64,000 bases of DNA, from assembly GCA_051313645.2 (NCBI GenBank), contig JBNRSN020000012.1:28024001-28088000 (forward strand), given 5' to 3'. Made by a program: the position numbers and the translations under genes. Shown in pieces: positions 15,475-43,472 of the stretch. The stretch comes from Centroscyllium fabricii. Its lineage: Eukaryota. Every line of letters begins with the position of its first letter. Position 1 is the first letter of the stretch. Under the pieces are notes generated by a model. That model was not told the origin of the DNA. It saw nothing but the letters and a program-made list of their open reading frames with translations, and did not search any database.

Positions 15475-16570
15475 GACATAGAAACATAGAAGATAAGTGT
15501 AAGCCATTCGGCCCCTCGAGCCTGCTCCACCATTCAAAGAGAACATGGCTGATCATCCAAACTCAATACAGGTTGAGCCGGCATCCGATGGTCCGGCACC
15601 TTCAGTGGTCCAGCACGAATGGAAACCGGCGGTCTTCAGTTTGCAGAGCAGCCGCTCAGCAGCGCCACTATTTCCCGCGAAGGGTGGGCGAGCTCCGAAG
15701 GCGTCAGGCGTTTGGGTTGCTGCTTTTTTAGGTCTTCTAAGTGTTCTATCCCCGGGCTGACTCCCGGGGAGTGTTCTACCCACGTGCTCCAGGCCCCGGG
15801 GTGTGTTCTACCCACGCGCACCCCCCGAACCTTTAGTGGTTTGGAATTTTCAATGGTCCAGCACCGGCCTGGTCCCGAGGGTGCCGGATTACCGGTGCTC
15901 AACCTGTACCCTTTTCCTGCCTTCTCCCCATATCCCTTGATCCCTTCAGTATTTAAGAAATATATCCAACTCATTCTTGAATATATTTTATGAATTGGCC
16001 TCAACTGCCTTCTGTGGTAGATAATTCCACAGGTTCAACACTCTCTGGGTGAAGAGGTTCCTCCTCATCTCTGTCCTAAATGGCTTACCCCTTATCCTTA
16101 GACTGTGACCCCTGGCTCTGGACTCCCCGACCATCGGGAACATCCTTCCTGCATCTAGTCTGTCCAGTCCTTTTAGAATTTTATAAGTTTCAATGAGATC
16201 CCCTCTCATTCTTCTAAACTCCAGCGAGTATAAGCCCAATCGACCCAATCTCTCCTCATATGTCAGTCTGGTGAATCTTCGCTGTACTCCCCCCATGGCC
16301 AGAACATCCTTCCTCAGATAAGGTGACCAAAACTGCACACAATACTCAAGGTGTGGCCTCACCAAGGCCCTGTAGCAAGACATCCTTGTTCCTGTACTCA
16401 AACCCTCTCGCTACGAAGGCCAACATACCATTTACCTTCTTAACCGCCTGTTGCACCTGCATGCTTGCCTTCAGCGACTGGTGCACAAGGACACCCAGGT
16501 CTGGTTGCACTTCCCCTTCTCCCAATCTATTGCCATTCAGATAATAATTTGCCTTCCTGTTTTTGACACC
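15475..16570 (-). mobile_element. CR1 3' fragment nested in an oppositely oriented CR1 tail (15360-16615)
   Basis: LVRPHLEYCVQFWSPYL...RGDLIETYK; the host tail gatcagccatgatctaattgaa resumes at 16571 with aggctcgaggggc. Confidence 0.85.
15569..15906. mobile_element. Tc1/pogo-like MITE, short reference form
   Basis: TA|CAGGTTGAG...CTCAACCTG|TA inserted in a CR1 3'UTR. Confidence 0.85.
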
Positions 16571-39253: not shown

Positions 39254-39567
39254 CAGGTCCAGCAGCTTCAGTGGTTTGGCACGATTGGAAACCGGCGTTT
39301 TTCATTTTGCGGCATAGCCGCTCGGCGGTGCCACCGTTTCCCGTGAAGGGTGGGCGAGCACCGAAGGCGTCGGGCTTTTGGGTTGCTGTTTTTCAGGTCT
39401 TGTAAGTGTTCTATCCCCGGGCTCCCTCCTGGGAAGTGTTCTACCCGCGTGCTTCAGGCCCCGGGGAGTGTTCTACCCGCGCTCCCCCCCGAACCTTCAG
39501 TGGTTTGGAATTTTCAGTGGTCCGGCACCAGCCTGGTCCCGAGGGTGCCGGATTAACGCTCAACCTA
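39254..39567. mobile_element. Tc1/pogo-like MITE, short form
   Basis: TA-flanked and collinear with 15569-15906, with small terminal deletions. Confidence 0.8.
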
Positions 39568-41408: not shown

Positions 41409-42200
41409 TATACATAATGTTATATAAACAGCCCAGTGTACAAAGTGATGTGGTCAATTGTATGTGAAATATATTTTCTTTGTAGTCCACCTGCATGTGC
41501 ATGTGAAAGACCTCTGAGCAATTTTCAGTTGAATGGTTACAAGGAAATTGGGTGTAACCGTGGGAGATTTGTGCCTCTTTTTATTGCAGTCTTATCTCAA
41601 AGATGAACGAGCGAGCATGTTGAGACAAGTTCTACGAGGTGCACAATGGAGCATGTGGCTGTAACACAACATTATACCTTTGTTGGGTGGTAGCTGTGTA
41701 GCCTGACTGACACAAAGATCAGTGCAGTCACAATTGATTGTTTTTTTTTCCAAAACGAGAATATTGGGGTGGGCGAGTCAGAAAAAAAACGCCCTGAAAG
41801 CTGTGGTTTCTCGGTTGTCATAACTACACACATAGGAAGACTTCAACTGTGACATGAAGTGACAGAAAACAATCACAAATAACCTACTTTAATGGACTGT
41901 CTAACCCCACAGCTTGCAGAGGCATTAATGATTAATCCAATATCATGGTAGCGCATTATGTTGGTTCTCCCATCCCTCCTTCCCAGGTGTCAGCCATGGC
42001 TTAGTGGGTGGCACGCTTACCTCTGAGCTGAAAGATTGTGGGTTCAAGTCTCACTCCAAAGGCTTGTGCACAAAATCCAGACCAACACTCTGCAGTGCTG
42101 AGGGGGTGCTGCACTGTCGGAGGTGCCGACTTTCGGATGAGATGTTAAACCGAGGCCCCGCCTGCTCTCTCGGGTGGATGCAAAAGATCCCGCGGCACTA

Positions 42201-42661
42201 CAGGTTGAGCACCGGTGATCCGGCACCCGATGTGCCGGCACCTTCAGTGGTTCGGCACAAATGGAAACCGGCGGTCTGCAGTTTGCGGAGTAGCCGCTCG
42301 GCGACGCCACCGTTTCCCGCGAAGGGTGCGCGAGCGCCGAAGGCGTCGGGCGTTTAGCTTTCTGTTTTTTTAGTGTTCTATCCCCGGGCTCCCTCCCGGG
42401 GAATGTTCTACCCGTGCGCTCCGGGCCCCGGGGAGTGTTCCAAGAGTAAGGAATGGCGAGCTGTCAACATCACCGTGGAGAGTCCGGCACAATTCCAGGT
42501 TGGGTTTAAAGCCATGAAATCGGATGTCGGAGAGACCGGTTACATTGCCATTGATGACGTTGAGTATTATCCTGAAGTGAACCACCTTCAGTGGCTCGGA
42601 ATTTTCAATGGTCCGGCACCGGCCTGGTCCTGAGGGTGCCGGATTAACGGTGCTCAACCTG
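42201..42661. mobile_element. Tc1/pogo-like MITE carrying a captured MAM-domain-like fragment
   Basis: TA|CAGGTTGAGCACCG ... CGGTGCTCAACCTG|(c)a; has about 140 bp not present in the 15569 and 39254 copies. Confidence 0.85.
42441..42583 (+). pseudogene. Captured coding fragment resembling the C-terminal strands of a MAM domain
   Basis: Open frame KSKEWRAVNITVESPAQFQVGFKAMKSDVGETGYIAIDDVEYYPE fits the MAM pattern W..a.v......FQv.Fe......G.IAiDDv. Confidence 0.75.
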
Positions 42662-43347
42662 CATTTCGAAGAAGAGCAGTGGCGTTGTCCCCGGTGTCCT
42701 GACCAATGTTTATCCCTCAATCAACATAACAAAATCAGATCATCTGGTCATTATCACATTGCTGTTTGTGGGAGCTTGCTGTTTGCAAATTGGCTGCCGC
42801 GTTTCCTACATTACATCAGTGACTCCACTCCAAAATTATTTCATTGGCTGTAAAGTGCTTTGGGATATCCCAAGGTCACAAAAAGCGCTATATAAATGCA
42901 ATGTTCGTTCTTTCTTTTCTCTTCCCTTGCCTCGCTGTGAGTTGCCAGGCTTATTGGGCAATCTAGTTGAGAAGACAATAAGTGGAGTCCAGAGGGAGGG
43001 AATGGGGGCTAATCTACGGTTGGTTCAACTTGATACCTTCAGATGTCCAGCTCAAAGGAGGTGTTTCTATTAACCATCTAAATTTGGGGACTGGTGTGTG
43101 GCTGGGAAATGTAATGAGATGGGAGGAAATAATTCCCAAACTTGAGGAAAGGGTTTGCAGCATGGTGTCAAAGAGCCCTATCTATGGCTTGACAACTAAA
43201 ATTCCTCTGAGAGCTCAGTAGAGTGTGACAGAAACAATCGCACGGGAAGTGTCTCAATGGATTTACTGCACGTACATGTAATCATTTGATTACCGGAGAG
43301 GAAAAGATCGTGTTTAATCTAACCTTTCATTCAATCATTTTTAACAG

Positions 43348-43472
43348 CCACGTCGACAGGATAACAACATGGCACGATCCACGAAAGACCATGAGTCAGA
43401 TGAACCTGAACACAGCTGGCACATCAAACCAGATGCAGCAGAGGTCCATGCCCGTGCCTCACCCAAATCCTG
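43348..43472 (+). CDS. WWTR1: WWTR1/TAZ internal coding exon (C-terminal half of WW1 + linker; equivalent to exon 3)
   Basis: Acceptor ttttaacag| and donor |gtgagt; 125 nt, phase 2 to 1, translating (N)HVDRITTWHDPRKTMSQMNLNTAGTSNQMQQRSMPVPHPNP(G). ITTW.DPRK and QRSM...PN match TAZ better than YAP1, whose equivalent reads TTTWQDPRK...QQNMMNSAS. Confidence 0.9.

What the first reader, a model, noticed from the sequence alone, without database searches (positions are those of the whole stretch)
42201..42661. MITE that has captured an open MAM-domain coding fragment (Pack-TIR-like)
Seen: this TA-flanked MITE is collinear with sister copies at 15569-15906 and 39254-39567, except that about 20 bp (tacccgcgctccccccga) is replaced by about 140 bp (42441-42583) reading stop-free as KSKEWRAVNITVESPAQFQVGFKAMKSDVGETGYIAIDDVEYYPE. 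Known: W-x2-a-x-v...FQ-V-x-F...G-x-IAIDD is the C-terminal signature of MAM domains (meprins, PTPRM/K, neuropilins, MAMDC/MALRD1-type proteins). Inference: a host-gene fragment was captured inside a non-autonomous Tc1/pogo element. Read-through at CAG/GTT (FQ|V), a position where I recall some MAM genes having an intron, hints at an RNA template. The element sits about 690 bp upstream of a TAZ exon, with the fragment on the sense strand.
Basis: partly seen in the sequence, partly recalled or inferred. Interest (0 to 1): 0.85.

Follow-up and report, generated by a model that had tools for sequence, protein, structure and literature searches.

The report
Transposon multiplying a spliced mRNA fragment
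A small cut-and-paste-type DNA transposon in a likely shark genome carries a 142-base piece of a host gene joined exactly across a 26-kb intron, so likely copied from messenger RNA during repair of a DNA break, and this hybrid now sits at over 1,300 sites with no sign of selection for protein.

Summary
Confirmed and extended. Window 42201-42661 is a 461-bp element with 28-bp terminal inverted repeats at a TA site. Its 142-nt cargo (42441-42582) hits Pfam MAM. The donor is a single-copy apical-endosomal-glycoprotein-like (MAMDC4-like) gene on another contig. The cargo is 58 nt of one exon plus 84 nt of the next, joined exactly at the splice sites of a 26,475-bp intron, so the template was spliced RNA or its cDNA. 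There is no poly(A) and no duplication around the cargo. It replaces 18 nt of the empty element at microhomologies (TTC, GAAC). It is not a one-off: 1,328 sites carry the left junction (up to 2 mismatches) and 834 the exact exon-exon junction. Sampled copies sit at separate TA sites, about 3% from their majority, with no purifying selection. Best reading: one RNA/cDNA-templated break repair inside a pogo/Tigger-like MITE, then mass transposition. The published animal Pack-TIR survey discarded intronless cargo and found four multicopy cases. Bat Helitrons amplify retrocopies by other routes. Exonisation into the host WWTR1 (TAZ) gene is untested, and the mobilising transposase was not pinned down. 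New variant of a known kind.

The parts
42201..42661 (+). Cargo-bearing MITE (461 bp), one copy of a family of at least 1,328
42199..42200 (.). Left TA target-site duplication; the SINE it interrupts reads through a single TA in other SINE copies
   Evidence: joint letters, table 5c
42662..42663 (.). Right target-site duplication, reads CA (T>C change inferred; most other copies have TA)
42201..42228 (+). Left terminal inverted repeat, 28 bp
   Evidence: 26 of 28 complementary to the right one
42634..42661 (-). Right terminal inverted repeat, 28 bp
42371..42440 (+). Units of the GC-rich internal tandem repeat (period about 32; up to 11 copies in an empty element); the cargo sits in the last unit; start coordinate approximate
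42438..42440 (+). Left microhomology TTC, present in both the MITE and the donor exon at the junction
42441..42498 (+). Cargo part 1: last 58 nt of donor exon A (G000:C825:207167-207040, minus strand)
42499..42582 (+). Cargo part 2: first 84 nt of donor exon B (G000:C825:180564-180447, minus strand); the donor intron of 26,475 bp is missing at 42498|42499
42579..42582 (+). Right microhomology GAAC, shared by donor and empty MITE
42583..42585 (+). Three extra bases (CAC), found at this point in neither the donor nor the 12 empty copies read; shared by most cargo copies
43348..43472 (+). Host-gene exon, WWTR1/TAZ (end of first WW domain); context only
   Evidence: (piece 8)
15569..15906 (+). Empty sister MITE
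39254..39567 (+). Empty sister MITE with a 5' internal deletion

Best explanation
A piece of spliced AEGP/MAMDC4-like mRNA, or its cDNA, was likely copied once into a broken copy of a non-autonomous, likely pogo/Tigger-type DNA transposon, and that hybrid was then likely spread by a transposase in trans to the 1,328 or more sites where it now lies. Shown: the two-exon cargo, the precise loss of the intron, one shared pair of junctions, microhomologies, the 18-nt deletion, no poly(A) or TSD at the cargo, TA-flanked dispersed copies, no purifying selection. Inferred: a germ-line or zygotic break in the GC-rich tandem array; annealing at TTC and GAAC with fill-in (microhomology-mediated, RT-product-templated repair); and the identity of the transposase. 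The cargo is most likely a neutral passenger.
For: Donor exons have canonical AG/GT borders 26,475 bp apart. Related shark proteins read straight across FQ-VGF/FQ-IGF. The majority base of 40 sampled copies equals the spliced donor at 139 of 142 positions; the window copy matches at 134 of 142. 834 exact hits span the exon-exon junction and 1,328 hits span the MITE-cargo left junction (up to 2 mismatches), with 0 hits for the reversed-pattern control in both. 29 of 40 sampled copies have TA plus TIR at both ends; 35 of 40 and 34 of 40 show the same left and right junction. Only 1 pair of the 40 shares both flanks. Empty elements are common: 1,265 exact hits to a CpG-rich junction pattern. Donor sequence just outside the cargo occurs once in the assembly on each side. 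A match of at least 3 nt on the left arises at 1.7%, and of at least 4 nt on the right at 1.1%, of 1,157 donor positions. Substitutions nonsynonymous/synonymous/stop are 158/53/9 against 143/68/9 expected (p=0.08). Experimental precedent: spliced mRNA fragments captured at Cas9 breaks in mouse zygotes without poly(A), with microhomology for Pcnt (PMC4516963, passages).
Against: The capture event itself is not observable. A since-deleted processed pseudogene as DNA template would give the same cargo. No transposase-bearing element with the MITE's exact TIR was found among 50 DDE_1 loci read, of 150 scored and 1,715 candidates. The microhomology background fixes the MITE breakpoints after the fact, so it overstates significance. 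A 121-nt stretch around the break region folds no better than shuffles (z -1.12), so a hairpin fragile site is not supported. Germ-line expression of the donor was not tested. The 3 extra bases and the C>A change next to the left junction are not explained by simple two-sided annealing.
Confidence: 0.72

Rival explanations
1. Two steps: the mRNA first made an ordinary processed pseudogene, a broken MITE then copied 142 nt of it by DNA-level gap filling as for other Pack-TIRs, and the pseudogene was later lost or is unassembled.
For: DNA-level gap filling with 1-36 nt microhomology is the published route for animal Pack-TIRs (PMC8277862). Capture of pre-existing retrogenes is a category used for bat Helitrons (PMC4224331).
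Against: Donor sequence 5' and 3' of the cargo occurs once each in the assembly. The cargo majority is only 3 of 142 bases from today's donor, and 2 of the 3 look like donor-side changes, leaving little time for an intermediate to age and vanish.
Confidence: 0.2
2. Purely DNA-level template switching: the polymerase jumped from the MITE to exon A, across the intron to exon B using the AGGT shared by both splice sites, and back to the MITE, with no RNA involved.
For: AGGT lies at both ends of the intron. Multi-switch replication repair (FoSTeST) is invoked for a multicopy Pack-TIR in PMC8277862 (passages).
Against: AGGT occurs 120 times inside the intron, so landing on the true acceptor 26 kb away is unlikely, and the first jump must also fall on the true donor site.
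Confidence: 0.03
3. The cargo was kept or amplified because it does something: a cassette exon, a short MAM peptide, or a source of small RNAs against the donor gene; this copy would act on WWTR1.
For: The frame is open and on the sense strand 687 bp before a WWTR1 exon, and a pyrimidine-rich AG lies upstream in the MITE. Contigs of run X1 (guessed to be RNA) cover the cargo. Two amino-acid changes appear on the donor side at positions conserved in other sharks.
Against: There is no deficit of nonsynonymous or stop changes. The fragment is under a third of a MAM domain and lacks the closing cysteine. The empty form amplified at least as well. Junction hits split about evenly between strands of the assembly (404/430). 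Selection on RNA-level roles was not tested.
Confidence: 0.08

Closest known systems
Animal Pack-TIRs (Tan et al. 2021, PMC8277862; passages plus part 2 of 10 read, supplements not read)
   Same: TIR element with internal host sequence, a short deletion at the break, microhomology at the junctions; multicopy cases have distinct TSDs and lie far from the parent.
   Different: That survey discarded intronless captures from multi-exon genes, found only four multicopy cases in the reference genomes (the illustrated one has three copies), and the word 'shark' does not occur in its main text. Here the cargo is spliced and there are at least 1,328 copies.
Helitron-amplified retrogenes in Myotis bats (Thomas et al. 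2014, PMC4224331; passages)
   Same: Intronless mRNA-derived host sequence inside a DNA transposon, then amplified with it.
   Different: Helitrons are rolling-circle elements. The four retroposed-in cases (118 copies) have poly(A) and TSDs typical of LINE-1 retroposition; other cases (TACC3, TFPT; 17-36 copies) were classed as captured retrogenes. Here the carrier is a TA-targeting TIR MITE, the cargo is an internal fragment cut at both ends, and the copy number is about ten times higher.
RT-product-mediated DSB repair (Ono et al. 2015, PMC4516963; passages)
   Same: Spliced internal mRNA fragments inserted at a break, no poly(A), often short microhomology.
   Different: Seen at induced Cas9 breaks in mouse zygotes as single events. 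Here it would be a natural, inherited event multiplied by transposition.
Plant Pack-MULE / Pack-CACTA transduplication (review PMC13317346; passages)
   Same: TIR DNA transposons carrying host gene fragments.
   Different: Described there as capture of genomic DNA, in different superfamilies. I did not check how often plant cargos lack introns.
PIF/Harbinger element carrying a CR1 fragment (Frith, bioRxiv 10.1101/2021.11.26.470093; passage)
   Same: RNA-derived sequence inside a TIR element, proliferated to thousands of copies in a vertebrate.
   Different: That cargo is a retrotransposon fragment, not a spliced host mRNA.
pogo/Tigger-like (DDE_1, PF03184) elements of this genome, about 2.4 kb
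   Same: TA TSD, termini beginning CAGG, a shared ATCCGGCACC core and 75-79% identity over 46-48 nt of the 3' subterminal region.
   Different: The first 16 or so bases of the TIR differ after CAGG, so this is a relative and candidate helper, not a proven parent.

Membership tests
MITE / non-autonomous TIR transposon | Short, terminal inverted repeats, no transposase | tested here: met
   461 bp, 28-bp TIRs; too short for a transposase, and the cargo's only Pfam match is MAM
MITE / non-autonomous TIR transposon | High copy number at dispersed sites with TSDs | tested here: met
   1,328 junction hits; 29 of 40 with TA at both ends; 1 flank-sharing pair in 40
Tc1/mariner-pogo (Tigger-like) | TA target-site duplication | tested here: met
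Tc1/mariner-pogo (Tigger-like) | Autonomous partner with the same TIR and a DDE_1 transposase | tested here: inconclusive
   Related termini only, in 50 DDE_1 loci read of 1,715 candidates
Pack-TIR | Internal non-TE host sequence with a parental locus not associated with the TE | tested here: met
   Donor exons in C825; blastn of the whole element against 200 kb around them hit only the two exons
Pack-TIR | Deletion of TE sequence and microhomology at the breakpoints | tested here: met
   18-nt deletion, TTC and GAAC
Pack-TIR (as operationally defined in PMC8277862) | DNA-level capture; intronless copies of multi-exon genes excluded | tested here: not met
   Cargo lacks the 26,475-bp intron; exclusion rule read
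Processed pseudogene made by LINE target-primed reverse transcription | Introns precisely removed | tested here: met
Processed pseudogene made by LINE target-primed reverse transcription | Intact 3' end with poly(A) tail and flanking TSD | tested here: not met
   Cargo ends inside coding exon B; longest A run 3; target bases deleted rather than duplicated
RT-product-mediated break repair | Doubly truncated spliced insert, microhomology, no poly(A) or TSD | tested here: met
RT-product-mediated break repair | Template is RNA/cDNA rather than a chromosomal retrocopy | tested here: inconclusive
   No extant extended retrocopy; a lost one cannot be excluded
MAMDC4/AEGP (donor gene) | Tandem MAM domains, one transmembrane helix, short cytoplasmic tail | tested here: met
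   MAM exons at C825 about 279.0, 272.4, 233.3, 228.1, 220.6, 207.1 and 180.5 kb, TM and tail at 179.9 kb; 7 of 7 hits named apical endosomal glycoprotein(-like); single-pass topology in PMC11125477 (passages)
MAMDC4/AEGP (donor gene) | One-to-one orthology with mammalian MAMDC4 | not tested
   Shark matches are 248-601 aa, coelacanth MAMDC4 1,157-1,205 aa; the donor may be a short paralogue; no tree or synteny was done
Functional exapted exon or gene | Purifying selection on the reading frame across copies | tested here: not met
   158/53/9 against 143/68/9 expected; 22 of 40 open

The most novel reading that the evidence does not exclude
Cut-and-paste MITEs in vertebrate germ lines take up spliced host mRNA by RNA/cDNA-templated break repair and can multiply it a thousand-fold, a class of gene-fragment duplication that the published animal Pack-TIR screen filtered out by design. 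In the boldest form, the 1,300-plus scattered copies, many in introns in either orientation, now supply antisense small RNAs against the AEGP-like donor, and the two donor-side amino-acid changes reflect escape from, or relaxation under, that targeting. I put direct RNA/cDNA capture at about 0.7; the probability given here is for the full reading with a regulatory effect on the donor.
Probability: 0.1. Interest if true: 0.85.

Novelty: new variant of a known kind. Interest (0 to 1): 0.66.

Why it matters
It is a well-resolved natural case in which retro-duplication and DNA transposition act in series in a vertebrate. A spliced fragment entered a TIR element without LINE hallmarks and was then copied at least 1,328 times. 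The animal Pack-TIR survey reported only four multicopy cases and excluded intronless cargo, so such families may be systematically missed and can be screened for directly: repeat families whose interior maps across an exon-exon junction. Because every copy preserves the founder junction, the family gives an unusually clean record of a repair event in the germ line or early embryo and of the donor mRNA at that time. Practically, over a thousand false MAM 'exons' can mislead gene annotation and read mapping in this lineage. No function is shown.

Tried and rejected
Word-based protein search with the 46-aa cargo found nothing; HMMER over representatives did (47 hits). None of 37 regions fetched around the 45 Pfam MAM hits held the donor; it was found by a splice-aware pattern, 1 of 15 loci read of 17 hits. 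Cargo as part of the parent transposon: rejected, since it maps to two host exons that continue in frame beyond it. Host exons derived from the MITE: rejected for the same reason. Segmental duplication as source of copies: 1 pair in 40. Purifying selection: not seen. Hairpin fragile site: z -1.12. Rfam: no match in 41900-43000. L173 looked like a TIR-bounded transposase but is a copy of the main 2.4-kb family with MITE ends next to it. Expression: no RNA holder listed. In one search all four runs were contigs; none of the 15 joints shown (650 not shown) links the cargo to the WWTR1 exon. Runs X3 and X15 lacked cover over parts of the MITE (X15, about 5% different in the intron, had near single-copy depth over the cargo). 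This hints at a lineage-restricted family, but contigs cannot show absence. X11 matches the flanks without differences and may be the source sample. Earlier scan findings: none by sequence or by words. Literature: searches listed no report of this family or of a TIR element amplifying spliced host mRNA. I saw only listings and abstract starts except for the six papers cited, the library lacks most subscription papers, and Repbase/Dfam could not be searched.

Full report
Observation. Window 42201-42661 is a 461-bp element with 28-bp terminal inverted repeats matching at 26 of 28 positions. It is preceded by TA and followed by CA, and it interrupts a SINE-like repeat whose other copies read through one TA at this point (table 5c; 'SINE' is my recalled label). 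The cargo peptide hits Pfam MAM at E 3.9e-6, just over the curated cut-off. The exon 687 bp downstream is WWTR1/TAZ: most of the 33 hits that carry a name are called WWTR1, at 93-100% identity in sharks and rays, which also places the genome among cartilaginous fishes.

Copy number. A DNA search of the own genome (7.2 Gb, 1,598 contigs) with the cargo and its junctions gave 1,516 candidates; all 40 scored were at least 96% identical. Pattern counts are whole: 834 exact hits to a 24-mer across the exon-exon junction and 1,328 hits to the MITE-cargo left junction with up to 2 mismatches; reversed-pattern controls gave 0. Correcting 834 for 2.5-3.5% divergence gives 1,500-2,000. Unresolved haplotypes in the assembly could inflate these counts somewhat. 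I read 40 copies chosen by position from the first hits listed on contigs C1 and C2 (40 of 834, all selected for the exact 24-mer). Of these, 29 have TA plus TIR at both ends, 35 show the same left junction and 34 the same right junction. One pair shares both flanks. The empty element is also abundant (1,265 exact hits to a CpG-rich pattern) and has an internal GC-rich tandem array of variable length.

Donor. A pattern demanding a base other than T after the putative splice site gave 17 hits. Of 15 read, 14 were variant or disrupted MITE copies and one (C825:207037, minus strand) was a free exon ending CAG|GTCAGT. The second half of the cargo lies 26.5 kb downstream, after TAG|, in an exon that continues beyond the cargo as ...PGVNCYGVRTDEIIG|GTAAGT. 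The intron is 26,475 bp. Further MAM exons lie upstream and a transmembrane-plus-tail exon downstream. An upstream exon matches 7 of 7 proteins named apical endosomal glycoprotein(-like) from sharks and rays. The cargo's top HMMER hits include shark and ray AEGP-like proteins and coelacanth MAMDC4 (5 of 47 hits looked up: 3 named AEGP-like, 1 MAMDC4, 1 hypothetical). Orthology with mammalian MAMDC4 was not tested. Donor sequence just outside the cargo occurs once in the assembly on each side, so no longer retrocopy is detectable.

Anatomy of the capture. The cargo is 58 nt of exon A plus 84 nt of exon B, joined at window 42498|42499. The majority base of the 40 copies equals the spliced donor at 139 of 142 positions. 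At two of the three differences the MITE encodes the residue seen in most or all other sharks aligned (V in 4 of 6, I in 6 of 6), so the donor appears to have changed since capture; at the third, next to the left junction, the donor looks ancestral. The cargo replaces 18 nt of the empty element. TTC is shared at the left junction and GAAC at the right, followed by three extra bases. Such matches arise at 1.7% and 1.1% of 1,157 donor positions, a figure that is optimistic because the breakpoints were fixed after the fact. There is no poly(A) and no duplication around the cargo.

Fate of the copies. Twenty full-length copies (19 of the 40 that passed length and end filters, plus the window copy) differ from their majority by 3.2% at non-CpG and 11.9% at CpG sites. 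In the cargo, nonsynonymous/synonymous/stop changes are 158/53/9 against 143/68/9 expected from the same mutation spectrum (p=0.08; three copies with large deletions or insertions align poorly and were left in). The frame is open without indels in 22 of 40. The open frame in the window copy therefore needs no functional explanation.

Mobiliser. DDE_1 transposases are abundant (1,715 candidates, 150 scored). The main family, about 2.4 kb with TA|CAGG termini and copies about 86-95% identical to each other, shares an ATCCGGCACC core and 75-79% of 46-48 subterminal bases with the MITE. No element with the MITE's exact TIR around a transposase was found in the 50 loci read. The pogo/Tigger assignment is therefore likely, not proven.

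Mechanism. Shown: spliced two-exon cargo, single origin, microhomologies, deletion, dispersal to TA sites, no purifying selection. Inferred: a break in one MITE copy in the germ line or zygote was repaired on the donor mRNA or its cDNA, as seen experimentally at Cas9 breaks in mouse zygotes (PMC4516963, passages), and the repaired copy became a master element (0.72). Rivals: DNA capture from a since-lost processed pseudogene (0.2); a DNA-level jump across the intron using the shared AGGT, which occurs 120 times within the intron (0.03); a selected function for the cargo (0.08, not exclusive of the others).

Comparison and novelty. It works like a Pack-TIR but fails the operational definition in Tan et al. 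2021, who discarded intronless captures and found four multicopy cases (PMC8277862; supplements not read, and they may list related cases). It is not a standard processed pseudogene. Bat Helitrons amplify retrocopies, in a different transposon order and at lower copy number (PMC4224331), and a CR1 fragment rides in a Harbinger family at thousands of copies (bioRxiv 10.1101/2021.11.26.470093). Searches listed no report of a TIR element amplifying spliced host mRNA in an animal; that library is incomplete and repeat databases were not searchable. Expression and exonisation remain open (see Tried and rejected).

Noticed in passing
window:36454-37131: A 678-bp element with nearly the same ends (TIR differs at one base) and an unrelated interior of about 480 bp. 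It is its own multicopy subfamily (3,014 candidates, 40 scored; most of 19 copies read have full TIRs, mostly at TA). The origin of the interior is unknown; it could be a second capture.
   Followed up: partly
window:43871-44340 and 11988 onward: Further elements sharing the same terminal motif but with different, CATGCGCAG-rich interiors; this TIR group has many MITE subfamilies.
   Followed up: no
window:59348-59452: A second WW-domain exon of the host gene, so this WWTR1 locus has tandem WW domains; inclusion in transcripts was not tested.
   Followed up: partly
G000:C825:207167-207040 (donor exon A): Two apparent donor-side amino-acid changes since capture (V>G, I>V) and no synonymous difference within the 142 nt, at positions mostly conserved in other sharks. 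Too few to interpret.
   Followed up: partly
window:42201-42661 in WWTR1 intron: Mammalian MAMDC4 is reported to regulate YAP (PMC11125477, passages) and this copy sits in the YAP paralogue TAZ; with over 1,300 copies this is probably coincidence.
   Followed up: no
G000:C967:6984886-9290855: Eight DDE_1 hits each within a 558-aa open frame on one 9.5-Mb contig, likely segmental duplicates of a pogo-like ORF; no TIRs were seen around the one read.
   Followed up: partly
L078:1700-2500 (just upstream of donor exon A): An LTR-retrotransposon-like stretch ends about 70 bp before the acceptor of donor exon A (label from my reading of the sequence).
   Followed up: no
L130 and L131 (G000:C2:76718009 and 76735525): Two cargo copies 17.5 kb apart with identical flanks: a local segmental duplicate or assembly duplication.
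   Followed up: yes
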